A stretch of DNA of 64,000 nt, taken from NCBI RefSeq assembly GCF_964188315.1, contig NC_135657.1, positions 76,570,001 through 76,634,000 on the forward strand, read 5' to 3'. Shown piece after piece: positions 21,760 through 62,933 of this stretch (the stretch's first letter is position 1; every line of letters begins with the position of its first letter). The notes beneath the pieces are model-generated. The model saw only the letters and a list, made by a program, of their open reading frames with translations, was not told the origin of the DNA and did not search any database. The stretch comes from Podarcis muralis. Its lineage: Eukaryota. Made by a program: the position numbers and the translations under genes.

Positions 21760-22442
21760 TGTCATGAACTGGCAGGATGACAGAGAAGAGGAAGAGGATC
21801 CCAGCAAGGGGTGTAGCCAGGACTGGGACACTCTGGGGCAAGCAGGGGATGGGGAAGGAAGTATTCACAGGGTGACGGAGGATGGCGAGGGGATGGAGGT
21901 CAGTCCACAGGAACCAGAGCAGCAGGACCCATCACCAGAGCCAGAGTGGCCGCTGTCCCCATGAACGCAGCAGGCTCAGAGGTATAGGAAGTAGTGGGAG
22001 CGGCGCTCTAGGAGGCTGACGCAGGCAAGGGCCCACATCCCAGCTCCCTAGCTGGCCAGGTGGGGCTCGCTAACTCTGTAGAGGGAAGTGATTCCTCAGC
22101 TAGAGTAGGCTTGGAACAGGTGAGGGTCACCTGCCTCATCAAGCCCAGATGTTGCAATCAGCACGCAAAGCGACAAAAGGGAAGCAGTGCTGATGTGCTG
22201 TGTCTGCTTAACTGCCTATGCTGACAGACCATGAGTTGGATGCTCCCGGACTGCTATAGATTGTGATTTGGGTTTGACTCTGGACCGTATCCTGACTGCT
22301 GGACTTCAGATGTGGCTTCCTTGGATTGATCCTGGACTGTGTTTCCTGACCTTTGGACTTTGCTTGTGTGGATTGACCTCTGGACTTTAAACATTGGATT
22401 GACACACTGACATGCTGCTGGGTAGGCCAGGGGTTCAGGACG
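21760..22442 (+). mobile_element. Solo LTR 1 (Gypsy-like, 683 bp)
   Basis: Starts TGTCATG, ends GGACG (CA mutated); 5-bp TSD GTATA at 21755-21759 and 22443-22447; GC-rich 5' half, GGACT-repeat-rich 3' half. Gypsy assignment is inferred from TSD length and architecture. Confidence 0.8.
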
Positions 22443-22796
22443 GTATATGAGTATCTTATGCCTCTAAATTCAGACATAATTCTTGTTGGGATTAGCAGTT
22501 TTAACCGGGTGCAGAATTGCAGGCATTAATTATTTGACTGCAAACATTAACTTCCCCTATAGATTTAGGGTTTATGTTGCTCATAGATAAGTTTTATGTT
22601 CCATCCCACCAATGCTTGCTATTTGAAAACAGTGGTTGTTTCTTTATGGGTTGATTTTAAAAATAGTCACAAATACTATTGTTGATTCAAATTGTTGCTG
22701 GACTCGTGACCTGAAAAGGCATAGAAGCTATCTAAGAAAATGCCTATGTAGAATGCAGGGTGGGTTTTGGGAAATTGCTGTACAATTGCTGTAGGA

Positions 22797-22932
22797 CAGG
22801 CATAGGCAAACTTTGGCCCTCCAGATGTTTGGGACTACAATTCCCATCATCCCTGACCACTGGTCCTGTTAGCTAGGGATGATGGGAATTGTAGTCCCAA
22901 ACATCAGGAGGGCTGGAGTCTGCCTATGCCTG
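22797..22932. mobile_element. hAT MITE, 136 bp
   Basis: 16-bp TIR CAGGCATAGGCAAACT (15/16); 8-bp TSD CTGTAGGA / CTGTAGAA; nearly fully palindromic. Confidence 0.93.
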
Positions 22933-24829
22933 CTGTAGAAAGTCAAGACAACATCACAGTACAATGCAAAACTCCCAAAATATGGAAACTGGCCACATAA
23001 ACTATTGCACATCCAACTAAATCAGAGTAGAACTTACATTAGTCATACCCATCAATTTCAACATGTCTACTCTGAATATAACTTGGTTTGGATTCAACCC
23101 ATTTTCTTTTCCAAAATAAACAACAAAACTATTCTCCCCTGTAGGGTGGCACTTCCCTGATATTTGTGTATCATATATTCTCCTTGCTGCTTTTATTTCC
23201 CTCTTGCCTTAAAAAATAAAAAGTGTTTAACGTATATGTTTATTATCACGGTTTAATTATGAACATGGATCACTTTTGCTTCTCAATTGACTGATAAAAA
23301 CACACTTTCACCTACAGGAGTCGTTTTCATGGCATGTAGCTAATGCTCTAAAGGTTAATTGTGGGAGCATACATCTGCTTTCAGTCCATAGTTACAATTA
23401 GGACTTCAAGCCTATGCACGTTTGCTTGAGAGTAAGCCCCATTGAACTGTGTGAGACTTAATTCTGAGGATCAGGCTGAATAAGTCACATTGATATAAGG
23501 TGAAAAAACTGTATTAGTTGCTAAGGTGGTTTTTTTTTTATGATGCTAGGTGCTGCCTGCATTACTTTCTTCCTAGAAAAACCTAGATACTCTCCCCCAT
23601 AATTAATAAGACTTCAGGTTTTTGAAGGTGTAATTTAAAGTCATAAGTATGCTGAATGTGACACCTACCATAGTGCAATTAGACAAATAAGTTTCCTTCT
23701 CACACACCACCTGCCGTCCTTAACTGTTCTATCAATGTCTCTCATTAAAGCACATTGAATTTTTGGGTGTAGATATATCATTATGCTTTTTAAAACCAAG
23801 TGCAAAAAGGTGTGTTCCCCACCCCCTGCTCTTCTCCTAAGACTTTTTTTTCTTGCTGATCTCTGTTGGGGGAAAAGTACAAAATCTGTGCTGAACTAAA
23901 AATTGTATTCCCTTCACTTTTAACCAAAAATCAATAAATAATGTAACGACAAAAAATATCCTGCCAAAAGAGGCAGCACCTAGTGAGTTATAACTTTATT
24001 CCTGTATAGCTCAAGGGGGGTTGCAAAGGGAGTGTGAAAAGTTCATTATTATCAGCCAGAAAAAAGAGCGAGTGCTGAGAAGAAAGAAGCTTCTTTCCTA
24101 CTGGGATTTCTCTCAAACTACATGATTTGCATGAAGGGCGCCACATCAAACATATTGGGTGCCCTTTTTCAAATATTAATGTGAAGCTTGTTTTAAGTTC
24201 TCTCTTGACTTTGTGCCACCTTGTATCAAAGGAAGTTAAAAGTAAGACTTGGGAGGAAAATACTTTTTCTAACTGTTTCAGCACTTAGTCCAAAAAAATA
24301 TACCGTATATAATCTTTTTCATTTGCTCAGTTCGGCATCAAACTTTTAATATTTTGACAAACAGGTATATATTTTTTTCATGAGATGCATATTTTAAAAC
24401 CAATCTTCTCCTTTTTAATTTAGTAGTCTACCAAATGCTGTATGATACAGTGTTTCATTATAATCATACCCTGATGCAAGTTGAAGCAGGCTACATATTG
24501 TATCCATGTCTTCTGAGGTCCTAACTTGAGAATTTAAATAATTTCCCCCAAAGTCCCATGCATATATGTGCCTAAGAATCCAAATTAATTATCAAGATGG
24601 AAGTTTTTGCAAATCTACTCCCTCTGTGTGTGTGTTAGGCTTTTAAAGTGGCAAGCACATGTCTTGTTGAGAAATAATTATCTGAGAGATCTGTTTTTGT
24701 CAAATAGTGCAAAACTGGCAATGATATGCAACGGCAGAAATACAGAGGTGTGCATTACCACACTGGCATAAGAACCTCTCCTCTTCAACACACACACCAC
24801 GATAACATGAATTGTGTGTATATTGTTTA

Positions 24830-35310: not shown

Positions 35311-36919
35311 CCAAAGCCATTGGGCTAAGGAAACTACTGTATTGGATACTGCCTGTTTTCTATGCAATGTAAGAGGGAATATTGGGTTTTTATTGTTGAT
35401 TTACTTTCTTTACTTCCTGTAGCAATTAATTTTATAGAAGCTGGTGTTAAAAACAACTCATCAGTTAATTAATGGTTTTTCCATTATCAGTATTTATAGC
35501 ATACATGACATACCAATTTATTAAATAATTTGGCTTGGATCCAGGGCCTTTGATGCAGTGATGGCTCCCACTGATGAAAGTAGGAGGGGTGATTTTCACA
35601 GAATCCTCTTCCTAAAACCTTCCATGCCCTCCCCAATGCTGTTTCAGAGGGTCCCAACCCTCTGGAAGGAATTCACAGTATGTGTATATGAGTGTCTGCG
35701 TGTTTATAGAAAGGGCGACAGAGAGAAGCAGTATTGTCCTATATATTTAAAATCAGACTATAACCAAGTGGATTAAAATTAAGTTTGTGAAACAAATCAA
35801 GGACCTACTCCAAAAGAAGAGTCAAACCTAAAATGCAATAATTTTGTGTAGTGCAGAGAATACTAACAATCCCTAATGTAGCCAACCGTTCTATACACTT
35901 CATCTTAGCATAAAGAAAGTCAAACAAAGCAGCTATAGTTATGGTTTCATAATGGCTTCATTCAGCATTTCTCAATTCGCCGGGGACTTCACCTAACCTA
36001 TTTAACACAAACACTTAATGTAATTTAAAACCGCATTGTATTGATAGCCTACATGCTATTCTTCTTGACCTGAGGACTCTCAGCTTCAAGCTGCCTGTTT
36101 TTCTGTCAATTAAAGTTTCCCAGGGCCTCCCTGGCAGCCTGACTTGGCTATTATGTGTTCAGTGTACTGTGGAGGAGGTGAGTGAAAAGTTATTAAATAT
36201 GTGTATGTACAGAACCTATATATTTTGCTAGCTAGACAGTGGTGCAATTGCACTGTTTAATAAGTTCATTTGTTGCTTGTCCCTCTCTGGTTTTTCACAA
36301 GCTCCTGTTTCAGCCTCCCACGCATGATTAACTGCTTCTTCTGCCATCCCAAATTCAAGGTTAACCTAAGGTCTCCTTCAGGTCGATGGACCATGTAATA
36401 GAAATCACACTGGAAGGACTATGTCACGAGAACTTCAGAAGCATTGGGGGTGGGGCAACTGCTCATTCTTCTCCATTCTTCTATTTTGGTGGTGGTGTTA
36501 TAATAAACCATCAGATTTCAGGGGGGTGTAACATTGAAAAAATATGCTGTGCTAATAGTGCAATCCTAGTTGTGTCTACTCAGAAGTGAGTCCATTGGAG
36601 CTACAGGCTTGCACTCTAAAAAGCTGCTGGGGCACAGCCCTCCTAAAGACAGAAAAAGCCCTTGCAAAACCTCAAAGCCACACACTCAGGAGGCGGAGGA
36701 GGCCAAGCTCAGAGCCAAGTATGACACAGCTTCGGTGTTTGGTTCCTCCACCTCCTGTTATGAAGGAATGGGTTTCTGTGCAGTCAGTTTGAAACTGACC
36801 CAAAATCCCATTTTTTCCTCCTCCAAGGGAGCATTTCTAAAATTCTCTAACTTGAGCTCTTGAGCCAAAACCCAGCTGTATAAACAAGTGCTCAAAGCAC
36901 TCTCCTTTATCAGTCCGTG

Positions 36920-37410
36920 ATGGCAACGGATGGCCTTGGCTGTTCCAGTGGAGCAGGGATGGCACTCTGTCTATCTTATCTTACACACTCTGAAGCACAG
37001 ACTTAGTCCGGGAACAGCGCCAGGAGTTGGTGACCTCTTGCTCCAAGATAAGAGTATAGGAACAGGAATAGGAACAACCTTTTATGGTGAAAAGTACAGG
37101 AAGAGGAAAACCCTTTTATGGTTAAGAGTAAGGAGCAGGAACATCTGTGATGTCAACTTGCGTGTATAAGCTGACGTGGCTGGATTCCTGGGGAAGGGGG
37201 GAGAGGGTGCCTGGAGGATATATATACTGCATGAAATTTCTCTTTTCTTTGGACTTGCTGTGGTCTGACCACACAAGTGCTTTCTGCTATCCGGAGAGCA
37301 GAATAAACTCTTTCTCTGAATCAACCTTGGTGTCATTTGACTTCCTTCCTCCCTCCTGGGAGCAACACAGACCCCACCAGTCGGTAAAGTCTAATAAGGC
37401 TACAGTTACA
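36920..37410 (+). mobile_element. Probable ERV/LTR relic, 5' boundary unresolved
   Basis: U3-like ~34-bp tandem repeats at 37050-37145, TATATATA at 37219, AATAAA at 37302, 3' end in ...CTACA or ...GTTACA. No TSD found. Confidence 0.5.
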
Positions 37411-40317: not shown

Positions 40318-40319
40318 TA

Positions 40320-43031: not shown

Positions 43032-43095
43032 TAGATAGGTGATGCTTGCAGCCAAACAGGCCAAACAGAATGTGGCTCCTACTTAGCTCATCTCT

Positions 43096-44528: not shown

Positions 44529-44544
44529 ATTATTTATTGTATTC

Positions 44545-44757: not shown

Positions 44758-45712
44758 CCTTCTAGGGACAGTATAGGGCAATATCAGTTTCTTCTCCTGG
44801 TACCCTTTTGATAGTAGCTGAGGAGTTTGTGCTGGGTACCTTGAAAGTTTGATTTATCAAAAAGGTAGTGTATGTAAATTTCATTGTTTTTCTTCTGTAG
44901 AATTGGAAGCAATTTTCAGGTGTGGTCAGCCTTCTGAGGGACTGAATCCTGCTGAAATTCAGATGGATATACCTGCAGTGGTTTTCCCACAAGGGCAGTC
45001 TTTGCAGTTTATTTTATAGTTATATCCCCCCTATTCTCCAAGGAGCTCAGTTCTGGGATGGGTAAAAAGGGAATTACTTAGTTCCGTATCCAATGCCCTC
45101 ATTCTGTTAGTCTACACTTGTGCAGTAAGACTTTTTCCCTCCTCCACTCACATGCACCTGCACCCTGCTCTGAAAGGTTGAAGGAATCCACAGAACAGAT
45201 TTAGTAGGTGCATGGGGAAGGAGAGGGGAAGAGTTCTGTTCTGCAAAGGTAAATCCTGCAAAGGTAAATGGAATGAGAGAGCTAACCACTATGTTGGATA
45301 CCTGCCTTAATCTCACCTAGTGTTCTGTGGGCAACAATTCTGAAAATCGTAGATATGGCCAGGTGGCCAGGTGGGTCAATGATTTTATTTTTTGCTAGGA
45401 ACCTTTCAAGTTGATTTGGAGAACTTAACAGGATTTGCTTCCCTCCCTGTGGTTTTGTGGGCAAAGATTTCATTTTGTAGAGGTGACCCTAGGAAAAATT
45501 CTAGCAAACAGCACAGAATGGACAAGAAAAAGGCAATACGTTACTGCAAAAAAACCTTCTCCAAAGCACGGTGATTGAGTCCTGGAAAAATATTTCCCTC
45601 TGATTAGAAGCTAGACCAGTCAGTAACAAAAAAAAAGCCCGCCTTCCTTCCATTCCCCCAGTTTATATGGCAGTCTTATGGAGAAATGTTTCAGTTTATC
45701 ACCCACATCATC

Positions 45713-45764
45713 TGTTGTTGTTGTTGTTGATGATTATGATGATGATGATGGTGATGATGATGAT
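45713..45764. repeat. (GTT)n(GAT)n trinucleotide repeat
   Basis: Read directly. Confidence 0.92.
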
Positions 45765-47396: not shown

Positions 47397-47819
47397 ATGT
47401 ACGGAAGTGAGAGCTGGACCATAAAGAAGGCTGATCGCCGAAGAATTGATGCTTTTGAATTATGGTGCTGGAGGAGACTCTTGAGAGTCCCATGGACTGC
47501 AAGAAGATCAAACCTATCCATTTCTTAAGGAAATCAGCCCTGAGTGCTCACTGGAAGGACAGATTGTGAAGCTGAGGCTCCAATACTTTGGCCACCTCAT
47601 GAGAAGAGAAGATTCCCTGGAAAAGACCCTGATGTTGGGAAAGATGGAGGGCACAAGGAGAAGAGGACGACAGAGGATGAGATGGTTGGATAGTGTTCTC
47701 GAAGCTACCAGCATGAGTTTGACTAAATTGCGGGAGGCAGTGAAAGACAGAAATGCCTGGCGTGCTCTGGTCCATGGGGTCACGAAGAGTCGGACACGAC
47801 TGAACGACTAAACAACATC
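47397..47819 (+). mobile_element. BovB LINE 3' fragment (~420 bp) with ORF C-terminus
   Basis: KLRLQYFGHLMRREDSLEKTLMLGKMEGTRRRGRQRMRWLD...WRALVHGVTKSRTRLND is the BovB C-terminus; perfect 11-bp TSD ATGCTTATATG at 47386-47396 and 47820-47830. Confidence 0.97.
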
Positions 47820-48214
47820 ATGCTTATATGGGAAGAGGGTTGTTTTTTGTTTAGAGGGGGCAAGGTACAGCAAAGGGACCTTATCCCTCTTCTCACTGCA
47901 GGAAGCAATCTGTGTGACTTCTTCCCAGCTTCCATTTTCTCCATGTTCTTTTTTTGCTGGGAAAATTGGGTGAAAAAAGACTATATGAAACCTAGTGGCC
48001 CCATGTAGGAGACTTAGCCTTTTTCTCCTTCCCATCTGGTCTTGGTCAGAGATTAATGTACTCTTTGCATGGATCCTCACTGATGCACCTTTCTTAAAAT
48101 TCATTATGTTTTGTTTCTTAATATTCATTTGAAGTTGCTTAAAACAGAGTCTGAGAACTGGTCCATCTGTCTTAGTAGGGTACCCAGATTATCCACAGAG
48201 ATATTTCCTACCCT

Positions 48215-48300
48215 GCTATCTATCATCCTTTTAACTGGAGGTGCCAGGGCTTGAATCTAGGACCATCTGCATGCAAAAAAATGAGCTTTGATCTATGGCT
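48215..48300 (-). mobile_element. Squam2-type SINE head fragment
   Basis: CTGGAGGTGCCAGGGCTTGAATCTAGGACCATCTGCATGCAAA is the reverse of the head at 43120-43175. Confidence 0.6.
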
Positions 48301-50843
48301 CAGGAATGCGTTGCTCCTTATTGGTCTGTGCAACATTTTGCACAAGTTGAGTGCAAACCGCTTTTAGTATCTGTGTGCTTCTTCTTCCCATGAGGGCTAA
48401 AAATGTTGTGTTTGCATACGCTACAATACAGGTTATTTTAGTATTGTGTCATGCTTAGCCCTCAAAGTTTACAATATCTTCCCAATCTCCAAAAATACAC
48501 CACCACCCCTTGAGATTGCACAGTAATCTCAACTCCAGCAAAGTTGTTAATGTATAAAGATAGCATGTCTGACTATACACAAATCTGGATTTCTAGAAAA
48601 TAAAAATATGCCTACATTTGTTATTTAACAAAGTTATATGTTGCTTAATTGTGAAAATAATCTCTAACTTGTTTATTTTTTTGTAAATGACACTATGCTT
48701 AAATAGACTATATGTTTGAATATGCACACACAGTATTTTAACCCTATTATGCCTGCAAAAAGCACTTTACTAATTCAGCAATTGGATTAAATTGACCAAA
48801 ATTTAACCACCTTTTAAAAAAAAGTTAATTACTTATTTTTTAGTGTAAAAGAATATGAAATTAGTATTACTGCTTGGGCTTGGTATTATTGCATGGGCTT
48901 GGTATTTGGGAACTATAATGATCCTCAATGTTAATTCCTATGGGGTCTAATAGATTCCTCCTCCTCCTACTACTACTACACACACTTTTCAAGATTTCCC
49001 TGAGTTAAGGCTTCAAAACATGTTGAGTGGCTAACATTATCTGTTCTCACCTTAGCTGCCAAATCAACATGAAGTATCCATTGTGTTGTTAAATGAGAGC
49101 TTTCATTCTGCTGGGATAATTTAGACTCCTTTCTCCTCCCACAATACCTTGGATGTAAAGTGTTTAATTTTCGCCATTAGTCTAACTGACACCAAGAGCC
49201 CTTTTAATAAAATCCTCAAATTAAATGAAAGTGAGGGAGGCTTAAACACAGCACCTTTGAATTGTATGGAAACACATAGAGCATAACATTGCTTAGCAGA
49301 AGAAAACAATACGTTAGGAAAGAGGTTTCCTAGAAATGTGTACTCCTTTGTGGTAGGCTATGAAACCAAAGCAAGGAAAATTGATATGATGAAGAGAAAA
49401 ACAATGGCTGAGATAGACGATTGTATGAAGTATTTCTTTAAATTGCTGTTGTTATTAGTCATCTAATAATGATGAATAATGACACACTGCACTAGGGCTG
49501 ATATTGGATCATGCATTGATGATGATGCATTAGTTTTAATCCAGACAAGATGGAGCTGATATTAGAGGCAAAATCAAATACTCTGTCAGTGGTGGAATTT
49601 GCCAGAACAAGTGAAAAGTTTTTTTCTCCCCTCACCTTTTACCACATGAGTTTAACTTGAACTCCTACTTCCTGCTGCTGCATAGGTAGGTAGTGGCAAC
49701 AGCCTGAAATGTCTTTTATTTAGTACATTCATCTATCTAACAATGTGCATATTGCTTAGTCACAGCTGTCTCTAAGTGGTGTACATGAGAACCAATACAA
49801 TAAATTTGATCTGGCCTTAATAATTCAAGAAGATTGGGATCTCATCACACTGTACATTCAAGATACTGTATTGAAACAATGAAGCCAAGGCATTTTTTTG
49901 AAATGCTATAGCTCACCATTGGGCAGGTGTGGGAATCTATAACTGAGTTGAATTTTTGAATTTTCAAACTTTTTGCTCAGTATTGGAGGGAGCATTGGGA
50001 GCCAGGGGTGTGCAGAAATCATATGGTTTCTAAGGAGCTTTTATTTTAAAATGTATAACAGGGTCATGCATAGTTGAATGTAAAGAGTCAACTGTCTATG
50101 AACTATTGTGAGTTTCTGCTGAGAGTTGTGAAGAAAACTTTAAAAATCCTAATGTAAACCCTAATCAGACATTAAAGCTAGTCACACAAATCAATTGGGG
50201 GCCCAGATTCCATGCAGGGTCAGCCCTGGAAAGTCCCAGATCAGATCACAGTTGATCCAAAGTCCTAACTGGGCCCCAGATTAGAGAAGAGGGAATGTGT
50301 GCACTGCTCTGCTTTATAAACAGGAGTCATGACATTAGAGGCTGGTAAATTCTTACTGGTCACTTGGTAGACATTTTGCTTCATCCTATCAGAGGACAGT
50401 TATAAGTTAATGAGGGAGAAGAATACTATATTGAAATGATTGGGTGTGGGGTGGGTGGGACTAGCTGAAAGGAATAAATAGGCTCAAAGTGAACAAAATG
50501 GCTGAAGAGAACGTACTGGTGTGTGATGGTTGGTCAGCTGAAGGAAGAGCTGTGCTAGATTTAGCTGCACCTTAATGTAGCTTTGCTACATACATAATCA
50601 TTAACTTGGGCTACATTTATAATCAATGGTTTTGCTAATGGCAAATGCAACATTCATACATAGTTGTTTGGCATTATTTAGGTTTGTTAGCATTCATTCT
50701 GCCAGCTCAGTAACTTTAGCAACAGTTTCTAATACTTTCTGGTAACAAACAGGAAGATGGAGCATACTAGATTTCTTCTTCATCATCATCATCATCACCA
50801 CCATCATCATCGTATCAGATCATTGGGGTGAGACATATTAAAG

Positions 50844-50979
50844 CAGGCATCCCCAACCTTCGGCCCTCCAGATGTTTTGAACTACAATTCCCATCATCCC
50901 TGACCACTGGTCCTGTTAGCTAGGAATCACGGGAGTTGTAGGCCAAAACATCTGGAGGGCTGCAGGTTGGGGATGCCTG
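50844..50979. mobile_element. hAT MITE, 136 bp
   Basis: Perfect 16-bp TIR CAGGCATCCCCAACCT; 8-bp TSD TATTAAAG / TATTAGAG. Confidence 0.95.
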
Positions 50980-51089
50980 TATTAGAGCTTCTACAAGATC
51001 TTGCCAATATTTTACCAAGTATTTGAAGAGACATGATCGTATGAGATGACAATGTAGCTATATAGGCAGTGCCAACTCAACAACAGGAA

Positions 51090-51268
51090 AAGCTTTGATG
51101 GTAAGAACTGTTTGACAGTAGAACAGACTGTCACGAGAGGTGGTGGATTCTCCTATCTCAGAGATTTTTAAGCAGAGGTTGGAAGGCCATCTGTCATGGA
51201 TGCTTTAGTTGACATTCCTGCGTTCCAGGGGGTTGGCTCCCTTCCAAGTCTACAATTCTATGATTCTT
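51090..51268 (+). mobile_element. CR1 3' end, older copy
   Basis: GGTGGTGGATTCTCC...TTTTAAGCAGAGGTTGGA...CTTCCAAGTCTACAATTCTATGATTCT parallels 62400-62581. Confidence 0.8.
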
Positions 51269-52447
51269 TGATTATATTTTTGAATTGTTCAGAATGACCA
51301 TTCCCTCTGTTTGCAAGGGGAAAGGTCATCCTTTAGGTGTTTGGGGAAGGACCAGAGCTCAGTGGTGGAGCAGTGGTAAAGCAGCTCCCTATATTTCTTT
51401 CTGTTTGCTATGTACAAACTATGAGATGTTTATGCTCAATGTAGAGGAATTTGGCTGGTGTTGATTTAGCCTAAGATTGGTGGCACAGACCCAAAGAGAT
51501 TCTATCTCACTGTTAACAAACATGACAACCTTTCTCCCTTTCACTTCATCAGACACTTTTAAAAGTTTTTATTTTTTTATTTTTTAAAAAGCAAGATTAC
51601 TTTATGGCCTTTTTGTGAATTTCTCCGTGGCATCTTGTGTTTACAGTAGAATCTTTACACCCTGTCACAGACATAACACAAATGCGTGAATATTAAAAGT
51701 GTGGGCTGAATACAAAAGATGTGGCTCTGGAAGACTCGGTTGTTTTCTCTTGAAGGGAATTCACATATGAGATGACATGTTTATTTGCATTTGATCGCTG
51801 GACAGCTCCCTTCCCAAAATAGCTTTTCAGCAAGTTAATTGTTTTGATCTCAATGTGGGCTGGTAAAGATGACATGTCAGACTCACCTTCCTTTTCTGTC
51901 CCCTTCTCCGCACCAGCAAATAATAAGGATGCTTATTTTTTTTAAAAAAAAGGAACCAGAGAAGAATAAAATGGACATCACAAGAACTGCAAGAGTTTTA
52001 TGGTGGTAACTTCATAATGTAACAAAAAGTGTCCAGAAATGATGAAAGAAACAGAGGCAATCTGCCAACTTTCCACTCAGTGCCTCTCGTAGGTCATTTA
52101 GAACACTTTCATATACTCTGAGAAAGCCAATTGACAAATTAATATTGTTATGTACTGTGAAAACAGAATGTGCCCTCTTTGCTAGTGAAAGTATATGAAC
52201 AAAGCTGTATAGGTAGATTTTTTTAAAAAAACAAATCTTTGCACAAGTTATGCAAGTGTGCAAAACTTTAATCAATCATAAGCTAAGGACCTGACAACAG
52301 GTTATTTCCCCAAACAAATAGTTCTGCTGTTCTGTACATGGGTTTTCACACAGATTTCCAGACTGGAGTTGTGGAACCATATTGGGCTTCTAACACAGTA
52401 GTAATCCTTTTCATCCTGCTGTGGTCCCAGTCCATTTGGTGGGGGAC

Positions 52448-52613
52448 CACTGATTTTTTTTCTGGGGGTACGCATACCCCTAAACATTTTGTGAATCTTT
52501 GTAGTTTTGTCCATTTACTGTATTTATTTTTCCTGATTTGAACTATAAAATGATGGTTTTCTTGAGTCAATATGAGAGCACCCCTAAACATTTTTTTTAG
52601 AATAAAAGCACTG
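52448..52613. mobile_element. Non-autonomous DNA transposon relic (hAT-like)
   Basis: Ends CACTGATTTTTTT / AATAAAAGCACTG; the start CAGTGCTTTTTTCTGGGGGTAC recurs near 40880. No TSD found. Confidence 0.5.
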
Positions 52614-54445
52614 CCTGTGTCTGTAATTTGTGTTGCAGAAACAGTCCTATTCTTTTCAATGAGACCACTTTTTATGAAATGCAAATCACAGATTGCAGTG
52701 TGAGGTACAGGATAAAGAAAGCACACAATCCCACAGAAGAGGGTTCCGTTTCTGGATAGGATCCACCATACTGGTTATTGGCGTGTGGAGGGGAAACCCT
52801 CACATCAGGGCAGAACTATGCAATTAGATAACATCGATTTGCCCAGGCTAGCAAAAGGCATTGCACTGCCACTACACCTCTAATCCTCCTGTGCCCAGCC
52901 ACCCTTACTCCTCTTTTTATTTGTCATTCGCTCCCCAACCTATGTTTTCAGTGTTTTACTGCTGCTAATTTGACAACGGTGCTGGCAGTCTCTCCACCTC
53001 TCTCTCCTCTTTCCCTTACACTGATGAAAGGAGTCCTTCTTCCAAGCAACATAGTCTGGAACAGGTGGCTCAGTAGAGCGGCTGCCTTGCTGCCTTGTGG
53101 CTCCAGGAGCTAAACATTAAGATACGTTCCTCTTTGGAAACATGAGATACAGCATAATGAATAACAAACATGCATTTTCCCAACCAAGGGTATGTTGGCT
53201 TCCTTATAGAAGCCCAGGAAATACATCAATGATAGGAATTATTTTGGGGAAGGGTTACTAATTTGGCTCCTTTCCTTGAATTTTGAAGACTAGATTAACT
53301 CATTCCTATCCCTATCTACCCACCTAGCTAGCTAGCTAGCAGTATAAATATTCAATTGACCTTATTGCTCTTTATTCTTTATGCACCTCTTGTTCACTTG
53401 ACAGATTGCATAAATTCAGTTCCTTTTTGTAAACAAATGGCAGAAGAACTGCCATCCTCGATGTGTATTAGGTCTGCTCTACTGCTGCTATGTTTGTGCA
53501 TATACTGTCCTTTCCAAGAGTAACTTGACTGTGGAAAATGAAATATGTCATATGCACTAGAAAAGGATGCATTTATAACTAACTAGAGAAAGAGAAGAAG
53601 GGGAAGGAAAAGAACCCAAGGCTGTAAACATTACGCTCTCCGATAAATTGATAGGTACAGAAATCCAAACAGTGATATCAGGTGCTATCTAAAGTGTGTG
53701 TTCAACTACAGTCCTATTACATCAAAGATGGAAACAAAAAACAAAACCAAACAGGGTTTCTGAAAAACCTTGTAGCAACCAGTACAAACAAAATGAAGCA
53801 TAAAATTGATAAGAAAATGGAAGTGGCTTGATTAGATCAATTCTATTAAAAGCACTGAAGGACAATAAATGATTCAATAGAGGTAATCTGCAGTTCAGGT
53901 TTACTCAGTAATCCACTGGAGGTCTTTGTCAAAATCTTTTGACAAGCTAATTAAAAGAAGACAGTTATGCAGCTTTGAGTATTTACTTTTCATGAAATGA
54001 ATCAACCAATCGGCAAACTTGCACATCCATATTTTCCCCTTCAGTAGTGTCATAGTGACCTTTTGCATGAATAAACTCCATCTTCCCCATGATAGCTTCA
54101 GAGCAACTTAATATTTAAATAATATACCCTTCTGTAGGAAAGAGAGAATGCAAATTGGGGGTTGTGGGAAATCTGTTCATTGTAACCCTGTTGTTTGCTC
54201 AGTGTAAGCTATGTTGAAGAAGAAATGTTTGTGCGTTCATAAAATGAATTAAACTCTACTTTTATCACCACTTGCATCTCTGTATCTTCCATATCCTTTT
54301 CCTTTCAGCCACGTGCCTAGAAAACAACTAAATATGGGATAGGGGAAGAGAAACTGCAGTTCTTAGGCAAGATTTGAATTATTCCTTTTGTCTTTACCAT
54401 ATCTAAATAGGACTTTCTCCATGACTTAGGTGGATAGTGTGTGTG

Positions 54446-55023
54446 TGATGGGGAGAAATCCAATTCAGTTCACATTTATTTATTTTTATGTATTAATAAA
54501 AATATTTTTGTACTGCTATTAAAAAAATCAGAGCTGTTTACAATTATAGATAAAACCAAATAATAGAATCCATATAAAAATGTTAAAATCAGAAATCAGC
54601 TGTTATGAAAAGATGCAAGATTTAAAGGCAAACCTACCCGATTCACACTTTGCCAAACAATGCAAGAAAACACACTAATCCTTTGAAATTTGCCCTTCTC
54701 TGAATTTTGCAGTGCAGTTTTCCAGCCAAGTAATGTATCAAGAAATTTCAAATATTCGGTTAAAGTGTGCATAAAATGCCTATATTGAATATAACATAGA
54801 AAGATGCATCATGTTTGGGGAAACTGCTTTGTAAAAATGTATCTATTAGGCAAATTGCATACAAGAATGTGTATATTAGGAGAAATGCATACGAAAATTA
54901 TGGTGAATTTTCACGAGAACTTTAAAAAAATCCATCATCATCACCACCAGCACAAATTGATGTGGAAATGTGGAGTACTGAACTCATTGGAAAAATGAGA
55001 AACTGAAAATTTGCCTATCCCTA
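54446..55023. mobile_element. AT-rich squamate non-autonomous DNA element (hAT-like), decayed
   Basis: Ends (G)TGATGGGGAGAAAT / ATTTGCCTATCCCTA; internal repeated TATATTAGG..AAAT.GCATAC.A units at 54835-54895. Recognised by recall only. Confidence 0.5.
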
Positions 55024-56722
55024 GTTGAGTAGAGAAGGCATGATTTTAATATATATACAATTAAATACACAAGCAAGTCTCTTTGGTCACACTGAACTTC
55101 TGGAGCAGTGCCACCTACTATTTTTGTCTGCATACTAAGAAGGGATGGCCATGTTTTTAAACACTCCCACCATCTTCATACAAATCAATATCTCTCATTG
55201 AGTTATGTGGGAGAAGGTTATGAGCTTCTACTCAGGGAGACTGGAAATATGGAAGGAAAACTCTCCCCTACCTCACCTGATTTGGGGATAATCAGGGTCC
55301 ACAGTGAGACAGAGCTTTGCTTCACCAAAAAACCCCAAAACCCATCCGCACCCAACTATACCTTTGATTGTCATCTGTTTATCTTCTCCATGAGCATCAT
55401 GAGCAGCTCTTCAATTTTGGGTGTCATAACAATTATAGTCCACTGCACTGGTGATAATACCACTAATTTTAAATAACAGCAGATGGAAAAGTGCAAGACT
55501 GGGTGGTGAGGAATTGCTTCATTAGCTGGGGTTCCTTAAGTGGTGCCTACATCCTTTGCATAGTCATGGAGTAAACTGCCTCAATCCAATCTACACGGTT
55601 TGTGTTGTCTCCTGTACTGAAGCACCATTTAATGTAGGAAAAGGAGTTTTAATTCAATTGTACTACACGGGATGTGAATGTTATTGAGCTGAAAAGAATG
55701 GGGGAATAGGGTCATTTGGAACTTCACACATAGCAATAAATTTGTTCTCCTTTTGGCAAAACTGGTTTGTTTTTTTTCTGATGAGACTGGGCCTCCTTCC
55801 CAAACATACTGAACGGCATCACTCTTTGAGGTGCATCACAGCAAGAACCCCATTGACTGCAGTCCTTTCAAGGTTCCCTCTGTGTGAAAAGCATCCCACC
55901 ATGCCAGAGAAAAGGCAAACATAGGGAACACATTCTGCCAAAATCAAGAGAAGAAAGGCAAAGCATTTTTGTGTTTACCATATGGTGTGGTAGCTTCTAG
56001 TGCCTTCTGTACTTAAGCATCAGGAAAAAGAAAAGAAAAGCTGTTATCCCTGAGCTAGGAGTATGAAAAGCATTATTTCCAAATATACTATTCCTTGTCT
56101 CCTTGGCAATGCCACCTCCTGCCCAAAACAAGAATCCAATAGTCTGTATTTATCAGTGGCCAACTTCATACATGCCCAAGAAATCTTAAGACAAAACCGC
56201 CAGATAATAGAGTTCTATGCATCTTTCAGTACCTGCATTTTTGGTATTTGTATTTGTGTACTGCTCACAGGAATAGCACCAAAGTACACTCTGGTTCTAC
56301 TGGCATTGCAGATCTACAGGGAATGCAGATCAATCTTCTAAGCTGGCCATCAATCGTAAGATGCTTAACAGAAATGAAAAATATAAGGGTGTTCAAATGA
56401 ACACAGCTGTGTACTTTACTTCATCCCTCTTCTGAAGGCTGAACGTTCAACCAGCAGAAGAAAAGGCCCTATGCATGTCTTAGTATCCCCCTTCTGTGGA
56501 ACAGCCGTATGCATGAAGGTCAGTGCCTGCGTATAGCATAGCCCCTCCTCATGCTCATCACAGGGCATATTAGTGCTGGCGTGTGTGGCTCTGGCTGTGG
56601 GGGGCGGGGCGGGTAACAAATGTAGCCTTGTGACTTCATCACACGTAACACAGGAGGGGTTCATCTGAACCTTCCTAAGTTCTTTAGGATAACTGGATTA
56701 ACCAAATATAAAACAATAAGAG

Positions 56723-56860
56723 ATACTGAAGGCAAACTTTAGGGAAGTTTTTAATGTTTGATGTTTTATTGTGTTTTTAATATCCTGTTGGAAGCCTCCC
56801 AGAGTGGCTGGGGAGGCCCGGACAGATGGGCATGGAATAAGTAATAAATTATTATTATAA
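56723..56860 (+). mobile_element. L2-type 3' tail
   Basis: TTTAGGGAAGTTTTTAATG...CCCAGAGTGGCTGGGGAGGCCCGGACAGATGGGCATGGAATAAGTAATAAATTATTATTA. Confidence 0.7.
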
Positions 56861-58079
56861 TGTTTCTGTACTAGCAGCTAGTTCCTACCTCAGCAGTGTC
56901 TTCTTAATTATTTACCCACTACATTCAAATTTTGTAGCTGGTAGGTTTCAAAAATTCACAAAAACCGAATCACAAAAACCCCCAACAACAGAAGACTTTG
57001 AGTTGGATACAGACTTAGTCATACTGAGCAGAAACACTGAAATAAAAATAACTTTAGTAATCACAGACTGACTTGAGCCTCGTTAATAGTACTACGTAAC
57101 TTAAATGACCAATTTATATGCATGTATGTATTTAACAGCATTTATATACCACCTCATAACTGTGGGATAACCAGTCTCATATAACCAATATGCTTAAGTC
57201 TAATTAATGCATGAAGGGGTTAAGACCATAGTGTAAGCTGTCCTGCCAAGCTTAGCGAGGTCACTGCCCCTCACCTTGGGGGGAACGGTTATCAAGGTAT
57301 TTATTTTTTCATTCCACCATGTGAACCCTACCAGTAAGGAGGTCTGAGTTGCTCCAGGCTCAGACTCATTGACTTACACAAGCCATCTTTGTGTTTCTAT
57401 ATAAATAATTTACAAACCTTCCCCACTTTGGAACCTAAGTTTTGCTTTCTGTGTTTTCTTCCTGCTGTATGGAAAAGCACACAAATCTCACCTTTGAAGA
57501 GTTTGTAAGGAAACCATTTTTAACTTACCAAATGTGTGATCTCTTTCTAAGCTAAGGGAAAATGGGAATTTTGGAAGCAACTTAGAGGGGATATTTTAAA
57601 AGTCTACAGACTTATATTTCCATGCTTTACTTCATTGAATAGTTTGTGATTCTAAATTTCTACTGGGGTTCTCTCATGAAAGAGTTCTTGCCCCAAACCT
57701 GAATCTTGGGATCCAGGAATTCTCATTTTGCTTACCTATTTAACAATAACAATAACAATAACCTCCCCATAAGCTTTGGATCACTTACAATAAATGCACA
57801 TAAATAAATAAAATTATCAGTACTTTTAACACTTACAAAGATTCCATTGAGGTGTTTCCTTACACAACTCAAAATAAGTGTCCTTCTGCTTAGTGTTATT
57901 AAATCCATTTCAGCAACTGATAAAGTCAGTTATATTCTATGCACGTTCATGCTCTTAAAATATAAATATGGTAGTCTTCAAGTGCTACAGGGACCAAGTC
58001 ATTAAAAAAAAAAAGAACAGTCACATATTAACACTGCTCTGAACTTGACTCACATTTTGTTTGTGCTTGCGTTCCTTTT

Positions 58080-58083
<4 letters not shown>

Positions 58084-58126
<43 letters not shown>
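58084..58126. repeat. (AT)21 microsatellite
   Basis: Read directly. Confidence 0.97.
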
Positions 58127-58129
<3 letters not shown>

Positions 58130-58568
58130 GCTCACATGAGCTCCATGTAGCGGATGTGGACTGGCAGTGCACAAACTAGAGGACCCTTGCAAAGTTTTGG
58201 CAAAGGGCCACTGTATGTTCCCAGCAATGGTCTGACATCTAGCTAATAAATCTTTAAACAGGGTTTCTAGGAAAGATGCCTGAGGCAAGGCTTGTGAGGC
58301 TTATGAAAGAAAAGGGAGAGGGAAAAATACAACCCTTCAGATGTACATAATGCGGCAATGCTGTGCAGAGGTTTGCCTCTTGTCTCATATCTCCAGAGTA
58401 TTTTGAACCTTATTTAGCGAACCTTATTTAGGACATGCATCATTTAAACCAATAATACAGGCTAAGGCTATGCTTCTGGTGAGAAGAAGGCTTTTTGCTT
58501 ATATATTTCCTCATTTTATAGCAATCTCATATGCTTCATCCTTTTATGACACTAATGGAACCACCAAT

Positions 58569-58953
58569 AAAAGTAAAAAGTAAAGGGCTCCTGGATGGTT
58601 AAGTCCCGTCAAAGGTGACTATGGGGTAGCAGTGCTCATCTCGCTTTCAGGCCGAGGGAGCTGGCGTTTATCCACAGACAGCTTTCCGGGTCATGTGGCC
58701 GGCATGACTAAACCACTTCTGGCACAATGGAACACTGAGACAGAAGCCAGAGCACACAGAAACGCCATTTACCTTCTCACCGCAGCGGTACCTATTTATC
58801 TACTTGCACTGGCGTGCTTTCAAACTGCTAGGTTGGCAGGAGATGGGACAGAGCAACTGGAGCTCATCCTATTGTGGGAATTCGAGCCGCCGACCTTCTG
58901 ATTAGCAAGCCCAAGAGGCTCCGTGGTTTAGACCACAGCACCACCCGTTTCCC
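58569..58953 (-). mobile_element. Sauria SINE (Squam1), full length, longer subfamily
   Basis: Same landmarks as 19673; 13-bp TSD TGGAACCACCAAT (58556) / TGGAACCACCAGT (58954). Confidence 0.95.
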
Positions 58954-59453
58954 TGGAACCACCAGTGCTGGACTTTGGATCATTGTGGTCCTTGGGTTTG
59001 TGGAGTAAGCGTTATATTTATATACTTCTATCCACACTATTTTCTTTATCTTAGGGAAGGAGACCTTTGAACTATTTAAATGTTCAGACCTGACTGCTTG
59101 TAAGCATAGGAAACGTGTTGCCAAAATTACCCAGGTCTTCTTTCAGCATGTTTAGTTCATTTGTCTTAAGGGCTTCAAGCCAGGCCAGATTAAGTGTGAT
59201 GTTTCTCGTTTGGTGTTGGTTTTCATGGCTGAATTTTTAAAATGCTGAAGCAAGGGTAGGTGAGAGCAGGACTGGAACCAGCATAAGGGGAAGGGAGCTT
59301 TAACCCTTTACCTGCCCCGCCCCCCATGGTTCCAATCAGAACCACATTTTATTTGCAATGCTATTCACACTGGTGCCAATGGGACCTTAGCAGACAGTAT
59401 GTTGGGGCTGCATCCCTCACCTGGCCTCCCTCTGCCTGAGTTGCTACCGCATA

Positions 59454-59606
59454 CCTCCCACATGTTGCTCTGGGGGTTCTCTTGATTCTCCAGAACAGAC
59501 TTGGGGGAGGGGGAGGGGCACCCAGGGAAAAGTAGGAAAGCCCCCTTGTGCTCCCTCTGCAAGTGTGTCAATGTTCCTTGAATGTGCACCATAATCCTGT
59601 CTTTCC
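59454..59606 (+). repeat. Dispersed repeat copy A (paired with 61544-61713)
   Basis: Colinear from CCTCCCACATG to CCATAATCCTGTCT.TCC with copy B. Confidence 0.85.
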
Positions 59607-61543
59607 TCTTCCCCTTTCCTGTCTCTCACCTCTCCATCCTAGTATGCAGCCAGAGGGAGGTCAGGCAAGTGGTATAGCCTCATCACACTGACCAATATTG
59701 CAATGAGATATCCATCTTTCCCTGCCCTATGACCATGTTGTTCCTATTGGAGCTTTTTGAAAGTAGACAGGAAAACCACCAGGTGACACAGGCAGCTCCA
59801 CTGTCACTAAAGTGGTAGCACAGAACTCCTCAGCCCCCTCAGTTGGAATGCTTTTTCACATGACTTCTGAAGCCTCCTCTAGCCAATAATTTAGTTCCCC
59901 ACATTATCCTCTTCTTCTCACATGAAGAAAATAAGTTTCTGGTTCACATGTGTGAACTGCTGTTTACCCTCCTGCTGATACAGACCTGGTTCACATGAAA
60001 CATTTAACCACAGTTTAGTTTTGCATCCATGAACCTACCCTACTCTCTTGCTATGACAATAGCTAGTTCTTAGTACTGCATCCAGGTGATATGCATTTGT
60101 GAGGTTGAAAGAAGGGAGGGAAAACCAGATGTGATCTATTTGATTTCTCCATCCTTTCCTTTTCATGAACATTAGATTTTCAGCATTGGGTGACTCATCA
60201 AGATCTAATGCGACTAATGCATAATTTTCTTTTGTATTCTAAGTACCACAGGCTGAACAGAATAATTGGATTTTTGACCTCCCCTGCAAACACATTCTTA
60301 TTATTATTGAGATACTTCTGCAATTCAAGGATTTTTCCTCTTGCCTTGTTTCAAGCTTTATAATCTTACACGGGCTGATTAATATTTTGTCAAGATCACC
60401 CAATATCCATCTGTCTAGTCATGAGTAATGATGAGCTGTGTATTGTGGCATATTGATACGCTCAGCTATTACTATTATTAGTGTTAAAATCATGGACTCC
60501 AGCTGCTTATTTCTTAAAAGATGAAAGGTGCATTGAAACCTTCCATGGTAATTAATAGGGTATTGATTATAAAGCAGCCTCATTTAAGTCCGCTAGTAGT
60601 TGGTTCTTTCAGAGTATTGACTCCAAAAACAAATGGTTAAGTGCCATTTTCCCATTCTCTAGAGGGAATAAAAGATTTATTCCTTTTGTTCTCATACTTG
60701 GGAGGGGGGATGAACCCCCACCCCACAACCAACAAAACCAGGAACTAAGATAGTATCTAATGCATCATTGTAGCAACATTCATTACATGAAGTGCAGGTC
60801 ACAAAGAAAGGTAATGGATGAAAGGGAGCAAGAACCATTAAACAATTAGGCTATTTTTCATTGGCTACAAAGACAATAATTGAAATGGTCTTGCTACTTC
60901 TGATTTATCAGCCGTTCATCTTCTCTCTTTTAGCAGGTGATTGAAAGTTGCCTTGGCTTTGTAAATACCAACACCAACAAAGAAAATACCTGTTGTCTCT
61001 TTATGTCCTGACCACCTCTTCTTCCTTTCACCACACATAACTTCTGCCTATGTGGGACCTATGAGGCTTAAGTGGATCAAACTCACAGATTTTTGTGATG
61101 TACGTTTTCCTTTGATTGAAGCTGTAACAGTCATTGCCCACAGAGCACTAAGTGCACAGGTAATTTGTTTAAACAAATGAACAATGCAATGAACCCTCTG
61201 TGTCCAAAGAAAAGATGGGAGGGTTTTTTAATACAGGGGAGGCTAACATGAGTCATGGCAGATATTACTGGACTCCAGCTCCCTTTAGCCCCAGCCAGAA
61301 TGGTTCATGAATGAATGGAGAGAGGGGGTAATGCTAGGATAGTTACATTAGATGGTCTATGTACTGTTTCTCTATGAATTACAGACATCACATGTTCAGC
61401 TTTAAAGTATGTTTGCATATTTCAGATTTGCCTACCTCTTCACCCAGTTTCACACAAAGGAAGGAATTCAGTGTCACACTCTTCTGATTGTTCCATTACT
61501 GCAAGCATGTCTGCTTGCCAGATGGAATTATCCTCCCTCTCTT

Positions 61544-61713
61544 CCTCCCACATGCTGCTCTGGGGGTTCTCCTGATTCTCCAGAGCAGACCTGGGGGAGG
61601 TGGAGGGGTACCAAGGGGAAGGTGGGAAAGCCCCCTTGTGCTAGTGAGATCCCTTGTGCTCCCTCTGCAAGTGTGCCAATGTTCCTTGAATGTGACCATA
61701 ATCCTGTCTCTCC
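61544..61713 (+). repeat. Dispersed repeat copy B (paired with 59454-59606)
   Basis: Same orientation as copy A, with an extra 18 bp between two CCCTTGTGCT units. Confidence 0.85.
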
Positions 61714-61835
61714 TTTTCAAACCATCAATATAGGCCAGATAAATAGATGTGTCTCACCTCAGAAGAGATATGTGATCATGTGATTTTTGTCATCTGACCT
61801 TATCCAGAGAAGTGTTCTGTGGAGAAGAGTGAAGG

Positions 61836-62933
61836 TGTCTGGAACTAACATGCCTTAATTACTGACTTCGCTGGAACTCAGGTGCACAGCTTTGTTTAGC
61901 TTCCTAATATTATCCTTGTGTCCATAATCACTTCCCCATACCTTGAAGCCAACATGAGCCAACAGTGCGACGCGGCAGCTAAAAAAAGCCAATGCAATTC
62001 TGGGCCTCATCAATAGGAGTATAGCATCTAGATCAAGGGAAGTAATAGTGCCACTGTATTCTGTTCTGGTCAGACCTCACCTGGAGTACTGTGTCCAGTT
62101 CTGGGCACCACAGTTCAAGAAGGACAGTGACAAACTGGAACGTGTCCAGAGGAGGGCAACCAAAATGGTCAAAGGCCTGGAAACGATGCCTTATGAGGAA
62201 CGGCTAAGGGAGCTGGGCATGTTTAGCCTGGAGAAGAGGAGGTTAAGGGGTGATATGATAGCCATGTTCAAATATATAAAAGGATGTCACATAGAGGAGG
62301 GAGAAAGGTTGTTTTCTGCTGCTCCAGAGAAGCGGACACGGAGCAATGGATCCAAACTACAAGAAAGAAGATTCCACCTAAACATTAGGAAGAACTTCCT
62401 GACAGTAAGAGCTGTTCGACAGTGGAATTTGCTGCCAAGGAGTGTGGTGGAGTCTCCTTCTTTGGAGGTCTTTAAGCAGAGGCTTGACAACCATATGTCA
62501 GGAGTGCTCTGATGGTGTTTCCTGCTTGGCAGGGGGTTGGACTCGATGGCCCTTGTGGTCTCTTCCAACTCTATGATTCTATGAAGCAAGTTGAGCTGAA
62601 GCTTGAAGCTATCAATGGGAGTTGTATAGGGAGCAGTTATCCCAGCAAAGGCCCAGGAAAGACCTTGATGTCTTCTCGGACAGTTCCTGCTCCTTCTTGG
62701 TCATCTGCTATGACATGCACACCAAGCCCTTCCCTGGTTTCGTCCTCCTCCTGGGTATAGTCCTGATAGTGAAGCCTTCTGGCAGCCAGATGAGCACTCC
62801 TCTGCTAACTCTGGACTTCTTGCTTGGCCCAACGCTGACTCAGCTTATTGGTGGGGTGGGGGTGGAAGTAGTGGAGAAGACTCTGGGATCTGGACAGGAA
62901 TCTACACATTGTGCGAAGGGACATAGTCAGACA
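61836..62933 (-). mobile_element. Solo LTR 3 (~460 bp once the nested CR1 is removed)
   Basis: Perfect 6-bp inverted ends TGTCTG...CAGACA; flanks AAGG / TAGG (possible decayed 4-bp TSD); GC-rich arm like LTRs 1 and 2. Confidence 0.6.
61950..62581 (+). mobile_element. Young CR1 LINE 3' fragment with open ORF2 C-terminus (to 62512)
   Basis: [20 protein letters not shown]...[12 protein letters not shown]...[23 protein letters not shown]...[14 protein letters not shown] is the canonical CR1 ORF2 end; tail TTCCAACTCTATGATTCTATG; possible 6-bp TSD TGAAGC at 61944 and 62582. Confidence 0.98.

What the first reader, a model, noticed from the sequence alone, without database searches (positions are those of the whole stretch)
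21760..62933. Three dissimilar solo LTRs each encode a Pro-rich peptide ending in an HMGN-like RRSxRL motif
Seen in sequence: LTR2 has an ATG at its 5th base (25944) opening 126 uninterrupted codons that run acidic, then Pro-rich, then PASPGLQRLRAERRRELSSHRRSARLQARR (RRSARL at 26247-26264). LTR1 also has an ATG at its 5th base (21764) and the same order, EEEED...PEPEWPLSP*TQQAQRYRK*WERRSRRLTQAR (RRSRRL at 22001-22018), with two in-frame stops that are single C-to-T changes from CGA and CAG. LTR3 (minus strand) gives PESSPLLPPPP, then after a frameshift and a stop, QRSAHLAARR (62787-62804). LTR1 and LTR2 use different codons for the motif (CGGCGCTCTAGGAGGCTG vs AGGAGGAGTGCTCGCCTC), which favours protein-level conservation. 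Established: RRSARLSA is the core of the HMGN nucleosome-binding domain that engages the H2A-H2B acidic patch, and some retroelement and viral proteins use short Arg motifs for chromatin tethering. Inference: these LTR families carry a U3-encoded chromatin-tethering peptide, either an integrase tail read into the 3' LTR or a separate accessory ORF. I do not know of this being described, but cannot rule it out.
Basis: partly seen in the sequence, partly recalled or inferred. Interest (0 to 1): 0.72.

Follow-up and report, generated by a model that had tools for sequence, protein, structure and literature searches.

The report
Nucleosome-gripping integrase tail inside lizard LTRs
The short frame in the best-preserved of these lizard jumping-gene end repeats is not a separate gene but the tail of the element's integrase, and it ends in a motif, also kept in anole elements, that is predicted to grip nucleosomes as the host's HMGN proteins do.

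Summary
LTR1 and LTR2 are real solo LTRs (5-bp TSDs). LTR2 belongs to a Tf1/sushi-type chromovirus family with full-length copies, in which pol reads through the chromodomain and PPT into U3 (28 of 37 PPT-bearing copies) and stops at the TATA box. The 'ATG at base 5' is an internal Met; the frame is an integrase tail, upstream of the inferred transcription start. The tail is under moderate purifying selection, strongest in a basic helix. Anolis chromovirus integrases end the same way: acidic spacer, variable helix, RRS[A/L]RI in 16 of 17 tails. A predicted complex puts PRRSARL on the H2A-H2B acidic patch (0.72, best control 0.02), possibly from memory of HMGN/LANA structures. Against: in the LTR2 clade the motif's DNA is nearly frozen at silent sites too; most LTR1 copies lack the first Arg; no pol link was found for LTR1 or LTR3; LTR3's LTR status is unconfirmed; sister families carry Arg-rich tails without the motif. 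Closest precedent: the LTR-encoded CR motif of plant CRM elements. Ten paper searches found no description; the Amn-ichi paper was unreadable. An earlier scan note on another genome reports a gypsy domain in LTRs or behind integrase, without this motif.

The parts
25940..26496 (+). LTR2: solo LTR of a Tf1/sushi-type (V-clade-like) chromovirus family; TSD CTTTG at 25935-25939 and 26497-26501
   Evidence: 3189 first-look candidates; 19 of 30 best copies with exact 5-bp TSD; full-length relatives, about 70% identical over U3
25944..26324 (+). U3-encoded integrase tail (126 codons plus stop): acidic start, Pro-rich spacer, basic end; the ATG is an internal Met of Pol; stop overlaps the TATA-like GATAAAAG
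   Evidence: (55% identity to the end of Pol of a PPT-bearing copy)
26193..26237 (+). basic predicted helix SPxLQRLRxERRR[E/D]L, the segment with the clearest protein-level selection
   Evidence: net pN/pS 0.06-0.19 with pS 0.20-0.54 in the five subfamily comparisons that involve C or E
26247..26264 (+). HMGN-like motif RRSARL (followed by QA)
21760..22442 (+). LTR1: older solo LTR (copies about 80% alike); TSD GTATA; no full-length element found
   Evidence: (1328 candidates)
21764..22051 (+). decayed U3 frame of LTR1 (95 codons to a stop shared by 24 of 29 other copies); acidic, Pro-rich, basic; xRSRRL at 22001-22018; likely an integrase tail by analogy only
62636..63085 (-). LTR3: ancient low-copy repeat remnant, LTR status unconfirmed, ends approximate; QRSAHL at 62804-62787
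25514..25779 (-). 5' fragment of a fourth LTR-like family (acidic frame from base 5); truncated before the motif; other copies carry RRSLRL-type motifs

Best explanation
LTR2 is a solo LTR of a lizard chromovirus whose pol frame runs through the polypurine tract into U3, so the flagged frame is the last ~115-130 residues of integrase, and its terminal RRSARL is likely a nucleosome tether predicted to bind the H2A-H2B acidic patch. Shown: Pol = PR-RT-RH-IN-SH3-chromodomain, then a PPT-coded linker, an acidic/Pro-rich spacer, a basic segment and the motif, ending at the TATA box. Inferred: the tail is translated only from the 3' LTR copy in the genomic RNA; the spacer is disordered and lets the intasome reach a nucleosome face, where Arg2, Ser3 and Arg5 dock as in HMGN2 and Dsup while the chromodomain reads a histone tail, giving a two-point grip during target capture. 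Solo LTRs keep the code as a silent passenger upstream of their start site. LTR1, LTR3 and the fourth family are likely older relatives of the same design (about 0.65, 0.5 and 0.65).
For: Read-through: 28 of 37 distinct PPT-bearing copies have chromodomain and U3 frame in one ORF; L117 and L118 run 355 and 337 nt into the 3' LTR; Pfam order; 237 exact PPT+LTR-start matches, control 0. Selection: the pol frame has the lowest dN/dS of the three sense frames in 8 of 8 copy pairs (0.51-0.69 with kappa 4; other sense frames 1.26-3.35); helix 0.06-0.19; among 38 young copies 1 shared indel in U3 (in frame) vs 23 in R/U5. Cross-species: RRSxR[LI] in 5 of 117 post-chromodomain tails, 0.08 expected (three lineages, not five); in Anolis 16 of 17 listed chromodomain+tail proteins keep RRS[A/L]RI while the preceding helix changes almost wholly; Anolis and LTR2 pol are 58% identical and sit in one squamate clade. 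The fourth family spells the motif with other codons. RRSARIAA is 7 of 8 identical to Dot5's tested RRSARIAT (PMC13347269). Model: score 0.72 vs best control 0.02 (mark reached by 51 of 78 solved and 2 of 108 mismatched pairs; runs agree in at least 18% of contacts; partner pLDDT at least 43); contacts are PRRSARL with H2A E61/E64/L65 and H2B Q47/E105/H109, as described for Dsup (PMC12487698).
Against: No binding was measured. One of three model runs scored 0.02, peptides are outside the tool's calibration, no Arg-rich or scrambled control was run, and solved HMGN/LANA-type complexes may be recalled. Within the LTR2 clade the six motif codons show 0-1 silent differences of about 5 sites where about 2.6 are expected for A/B vs E (p about 0.03), and U3 dS (0.18) is below pol-core dS (0.30-0.39), so DNA-level constraint overlaps. 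Whole-tail selection is modest (Fisher p 0.012-0.135 per pair; within-subfamily baselines 0.72-0.96). 9 of 37 PPT copies fail the in-frame test (one lost the chromodomain in frame; 8 end before U3, mostly by slips at a G run), as does L153. Sister families (L119, L123, L131, L134, L090) have Arg-rich U3 tails without RRSxRL. Most LTR1 copies lack Arg1, which Dot5 needs. Frog motif-bearers nest among motif-less frog elements.
Confidence: 0.62

Rival explanations
1. The frame is an integrase tail, but its basic end works as a nuclear localisation signal or non-specific DNA/RNA-binding patch, and the HMGN likeness is incidental.
For: Sister families have Arg/Lys-rich ends with no RRSxRL; the upstream helix shows the clearest selection; C-terminal integrase NLSs are known for Ty1 (titles seen in the reference list of PMC3605345).
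Against: An NLS tolerates Arg/Lys exchange and needs no fixed Ser or hydrophobic residue, yet R-R-S-x-R-[LI] stays fixed across Anolis subfamilies whose neighbouring basic residues change; the model picks the motif, not the helix, as the interface.
Confidence: 0.22
2. The motif is a by-product of a conserved promoter element about 60-75 nt upstream of the TATA box; the tail is tolerated read-through kept open only to avoid truncation.
For: 17 of 18 motif bases are invariant across subfamilies A-E; LTR3 shares an 11-nt word with LTR2 there; U3 dS is low; in the L119/L123 families the basic WKRF[RK]K end lies at the expected TATA position.
Against: LTR1 and the fourth family use different codons; the x position toggles Ala/Leu in Anolis, which needs base changes mid-motif; the helix tolerates silent but not replacement change.
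Confidence: 0.1
3. The LTR frame is also made as a stand-alone peptide from its own ATG (accessory ORF).
For: ATG at base 5 recurs in LTR1, LTR2 and the fourth family; automatic gene models start at it (P0022, P0027, P0028, P0030); sense RNA reads cover U3.
Against: The frame ends 36-37 nt before the self-priming complement that marks the start site, so the LTR's own promoter cannot transcribe it; the L119/L131 families have no ATG there and still read through; the ATG is part of the TGTGATG/TGTCATG terminus, a start also common in plant CRM LTRs (PMC3059260).
Confidence: 0.06

Closest known systems
V-clade (Amn/Sushi-like) vertebrate chromoviruses, Tf1/Sushi group of Ty3/Gypsy (PMC2774666, PMC6317226, passages; Amn-ichi of Anolis, PMID 19118606, citation only)
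   Same: Domain order, chromodomain at the integrase end, self-priming-type PBS, no env; groups with Anolis elements
   Different: A 110-140-residue U3-encoded extension after the chromodomain with an HMGN-like motif is not mentioned in the passages read; most other chromoviral pols end soon after the chromodomain (102 of 117 have tails of 60 aa or less)
CR motif / putative targeting domain of plant CRM group A elements (PMC3059260, PMC3605345, passages)
   Same: [quoted passage not shown]
   Different: CR replaces the chromodomain and is tied to centromeres; here the chromodomain with its aromatic cage is kept, the tail is added, and copies occur on all large contigs
HMGN nucleosome-binding motif and its mimics Dsup (RRSSRLTS) and yeast Dot5 (RRSARIAT) (PMC12487698 part 1 of 5 and passages; PMC13347269 passages)
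   Same: R-R-S-x-R-[LI] core with the three Arg and the Ser; predicted contacts on the same acidic-patch residues
   Different: Carried at the end of a retrotransposon integrase, acidic region before rather than after it, no Pfam hit to any family for the window frame; binding untested
Viral acidic-patch tethers: foamy virus Gag, KSHV LANA, CMV IE1 (PMC9040877, passages)
   Same: Short Arg-anchor peptide of a mobile element that holds it on host chromatin
   Different: Those are in Gag or latency proteins and are not HMGN-like; here it is in integrase next to a chromodomain
Tal1/EVD integrase C-terminus (PMC11735389, passages)
   Same: A variable integrase C-terminal region in which one Arg/Lys sets target choice
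   Different: Copia, plants, not LTR-encoded, partner unknown

Membership tests
Tf1/Sushi (V-clade) chromovirus | gag then PR-RT-RH-IN order, no env | tested here: met
   (L117, L118)
Tf1/Sushi (V-clade) chromovirus | chromodomain at the integrase C-terminus with the aromatic cage | tested here: met
   PF00385 E 1e-14; Tyr, Trp, Tyr cage positions read
Tf1/Sushi (V-clade) chromovirus | self-priming PBS complementary to the LTR | tested here: met
   10-nt complement in L117 and L118
Tf1/Sushi (V-clade) chromovirus | phylogenetic placement with named references (Amn-ichi, Sushi-ichi) | tested here: inconclusive
   groups with Anolis pols, SH-aLRT 100, quick tree only; no named reference in the tree
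Tf1/Sushi (V-clade) chromovirus | same internal region for LTR1, LTR3 and the fourth family | tested here: inconclusive
   no pol or gag beside any copy examined
HMGN proteins | stand-alone protein matching the HMGN family profile | tested here: not met
   no Pfam family at E up to 1; frame is part of Pol
HMGN proteins | exact RRSARLSA core | tested here: not met
   RRSARLKA or RRSARLQA, 7 of 8
HMGN-like motif (Dsup, Dot5 type) | Arg1, Arg2, Ser3, Arg5 present | tested here: met
   LTR2 clade and Anolis; not met in most LTR1 copies, which lack Arg1
HMGN-like motif (Dsup, Dot5 type) | acidic-patch-dependent nucleosome binding | not testable with these tools
   predicted only
Plant CRM group A (CR motif) | pol extends into the 3' LTR | tested here: met
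Plant CRM group A (CR motif) | CR motif in place of a chromodomain | tested here: not met
   chromodomain present upstream of the PPT
Plant CRM group A (CR motif) | centromeric concentration | not tested
   copies lie on many contigs and positions; centromere positions unknown

The most novel reading that the evidence does not exclude
Squamate chromoviruses have, since before the lacertid-anole split, used their own U3 to encode an HMGN-mimic that makes integrase a two-handed nucleosome reader (chromodomain on a histone tail, RRSxRL on the acidic patch), with an independent RRSPRL version in a frog lineage; thousands of solo LTRs thereby seed lizard genomes with ready-made nucleosome-binding modules that host transcripts can exonise.
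Probability: 0.4. Interest if true: 0.8.

Novelty: new variant of a known kind. Interest (0 to 1): 0.66.

Why it matters
How vertebrate LTR retrotransposons choose and hold their target chromatin is largely open. This gives a concrete 6-residue candidate, a named host surface and simple peptide tests. It would add a retrotransposon integrase to the short list of non-HMGN proteins with an HMGN-type motif (Dsup, Dot5), show a vertebrate parallel to the LTR-encoded targeting domain of plant CRM elements, and explain why many lizard LTRs begin with a long acidic-to-basic open frame that annotation pipelines call as genes.

Tried and rejected
BLASTP of the LTR1 and LTR2 frames: no significant alignment. 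Pfam on six window frames: nothing below E 0.1. PDB sequence search with the tail: 0 hits. ESM Atlas: only chromodomain clusters at 0.86-0.87, leads only. Full-length LTR1: three patterns gave 0 matches, 19 matches vs 15 in the control, and 1 non-LTR match; tblastn found no pol or gag in 55 LTR1, LTR3 and pattern loci. Fourth family: no pol or gag in 20 loci. Profile search of 1.84 billion representatives gave only 4 hits, all resembling the lacertid families; it missed the Anolis tails, which came from the integrase search. RNA: no RNA holder listed; raw reads of two bulk runs of a related organism gave low, mostly one-strand coverage of the internal region (depth 0-4.7; sense if the library is of the usual stranded type), no start sites; not decisive. 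First dN/dS run used only 6 old copies and no ts/tv weighting; superseded, for which copies with broken frames were dropped (13 of 28 parsed C copies and 19 of 30 E copies kept). The careful tree did not finish. Frog RRSPRL treated as weak: one lineage, Arg-rich tails, per-tail chance about 0.01. Paper searches with no description of this feature: (listings); PMID 19118606 not held; no supplements read.
Full report
Setting. The window lies in a 1.52-Gb genome. The nearest named relatives of the element's proteins are from Podarcis (76-100% identity), so the host is likely a lacertid lizard (inference).

Observation. RRSxRL occurs only twice in the six frames of the window, both in these LTRs, against 0.12 expected; the loose pattern occurs three times, at the three named sites, against 0.82. 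With U3's own composition, RRSxRL arises in one frame with probability 0.0008 and a 126-codon open frame with 0.018. LTR2 (25940-26496) and LTR1 (21760-22442) are solo LTRs with 5-bp TSDs and over a thousand first-look candidates each. LTR3 has 5 weak relatives and no TSD; one relative has TGT...ACA-like ends by eye.

What the frame is. A PPT-plus-LTR2-start pattern has 237 exact matches, control 0. Upstream lies a chromoviral pol. In L117 (LTRs 99.85% alike) and L118 (100%) pol runs 355 and 337 nt into the 3' LTR, with PR-RT-RH-IN-SH3-chromodomain order. In 28 of 37 distinct PPT-bearing copies chromodomain and U3 frame form one ORF; among the 19 distinct copies first listed by the pattern search 18 do, and the 19th lost its chromodomain in frame. 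The other failures come from the score-sorted chromodomain search and mostly show a changed G run. The ORF stops at or just before a TATA-like GATAAA; 36-37 nt after the stop lies the 10-nt complement of the sequence following the 5' LTR. Tf1/Sushi elements self-prime (PMC6317226); that this complement marks the RNA 5' end is recalled knowledge. So the frame is in U3, is not transcribed from a solo LTR's own promoter, and its ATG is an internal Met. Other chromovirus families of the genome also read through, without an ATG there.

Selection. Using real copies only, the pol frame has the lowest dN/dS of the three sense frames in 8 of 8 pairs (0.51-0.69 at kappa 4; Fisher p 0.012-0.135), against about 0.05-0.06 in the enzyme core and 0.83 among old copies of one subfamily. 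With a fifth, more distant subfamily, net pN/pS is 0.52-0.76 for the whole tail, 0.48-0.92 in the spacer and 0.06-0.19 in the 15-codon basic helix, where silent sites diverge as much as elsewhere (segment chosen after seeing the alignment). Among 38 young copies U3 has 1 shared indel, in frame, and R/U5 has 23, 7 of them multiples of three. The six motif codons show no net replacement, but also only 0-1 silent differences; about 2.6 are expected between A/B and E (p about 0.03). U3 dS is also lower than pol dS. A promoter element overlapping the motif is therefore not excluded in this clade.

Other families and species. In LTR1 the first Arg is Gly in 16 of 29 other copies; the second position varies as a decayed CpG Arg codon would; Ser, Arg, Arg, Leu are kept in 22-27 of 29. 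One stop is shared by 19 of 29 in a CpG-type column, the other by 2. A fourth family, with a fragment in the window, shows an RRSLRL-type motif in other codons. None of these three could be linked to a pol. Among the 120 best of 1022 integrase relatives, 117 have a chromodomain core, 15 a tail over 60 aa and 5 RRSxR[LI] (0.08 expected; 1 hit in 143,285 upstream residues). These are three lineages. Anolis pols read chromodomain, a ...GDSV-M junction like LTR2's GDGV-M, an acidic spacer, SP, a variable helix and RRS[A/L]RIAA at the very end; 16 of 17 such proteins among 30 listed of 460 cluster members keep the motif while the helix changes. That their tail lies in the LTR is inferred from the junction; no Anolis DNA was seen. 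A quick tree groups LTR2, Anolis, Rhineura and the Arg-rich-tail families (SH-aLRT 100) and nests the frog RRSPRL pair among motif-less frog elements (34 rows, none left out).

Mechanism. HMGN2 uses Arg2 and Arg5 of RRSARLSA on the acidic patch, and Dsup's PPRRSSRLT binds likewise (PMC12487698; part 1 of 5 and passages); Dot5's RRSARIAT needs Arg1, Arg2 and Arg5 (PMC13347269, passages). The natural 42-residue tail end of L118 folded with this genome's H2A and H2B scored 0.72 against a best control of 0.02 (runs 0.73, 0.72, 0.02; mark reached by 51 of 78 solved and 2 of 108 mismatched pairs; contacts agree in at least 18%; partner pLDDT at least 43; alignments not used). Only PRRSARL and one further residue touch, at H2A E61, E64, L65 and H2B Q47, E105, H109 (mature numbering). 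Peptides are outside the calibration and like complexes are solved, so this shows likeness, not binding. I put the acidic-patch tether at 0.62, an NLS or general basic patch at 0.22, a DNA element at 0.10 and a stand-alone peptide at 0.06.

Comparison and novelty. Pol extending into the 3' LTR to encode a targeting segment is known for plant CRM elements and some Beta chromoviruses (PMC3059260, PMC3605345, passages); viral acidic-patch tethers are known (PMC9040877, passages); integrase C-termini steer targeting in Tal1 (PMC11735389, passages). The tails are already in UniRef as unremarked ends of predicted proteins. Ten searches found no paper describing an HMGN-like motif in a retrotransposon integrase; the Amn-ichi paper was not held and no supplements were read, so a prior mention of the read-through cannot be excluded. 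One earlier scan note on another genome (e1-7556530) reports a gypsy domain in an LTR or behind integrase; no note holds this motif or sequence. Verdict: new variant of a known kind, interest 0.66.

Noticed in passing
window 25514-25779 (-): Fragment of a fourth LTR-like family, 160 bp from LTR2; other copies have an acidic frame from base 5, then SPRTxRxMKR and an RRSLRL-type motif in different codons.
   Followed up: partly
L119, L120, L121, L123, L131, L134, L135; L088, L090, L098: Other chromovirus families of this genome have a degenerate chromodomain, a long acidic insert before the PPT and a 70-110 aa U3 tail ending in an Arg-rich stretch and LxCWxRFxK; in L119 and L123 the self-priming site lies inside the last codons.
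   Followed up: partly
L139, L142, L150, L152-L157: Young copies in which pol ends just before U3, mostly with a changed G-run length upstream of the PPT; slippage, sequencing error or a way to make tail-less integrase.
   Followed up: no
L117 vs L118: Close subfamilies differ in gag-pol layout: two overlapping frames (307 + 1270 aa) vs one 1575-aa frame.
   Followed up: no
G000 contig C20: A 30-Mb contig holds a large share of the best chromovirus SH3 hits, as expected of a W chromosome or other repeat refuge (inference).
   Followed up: no
P0022, P0027, P0028, P0030, P0174, P0175: Automatic gene models in Podarcis start at the U3 ATG, one fused to a host receptor-like domain; two Anolis host-named isoforms cluster with element Pol; possible exonisation or annotation artefacts.
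   Followed up: no
R/U5 of young LTR2-family copies: LTR length varies from 551 to 772 bp almost entirely through R/U5 indels, several of 42 or 84 bp.
   Followed up: no
G000:C5:20412207-20448935: Four PPT-LTR matches spaced about 12 kb apart, suggesting a tandem duplication holding an element.
   Followed up: no
window 61958-62540 (+): CR1-like LINE 3' end abutting LTR3 (label from recall of the translated frame; no library hit).
   Followed up: no
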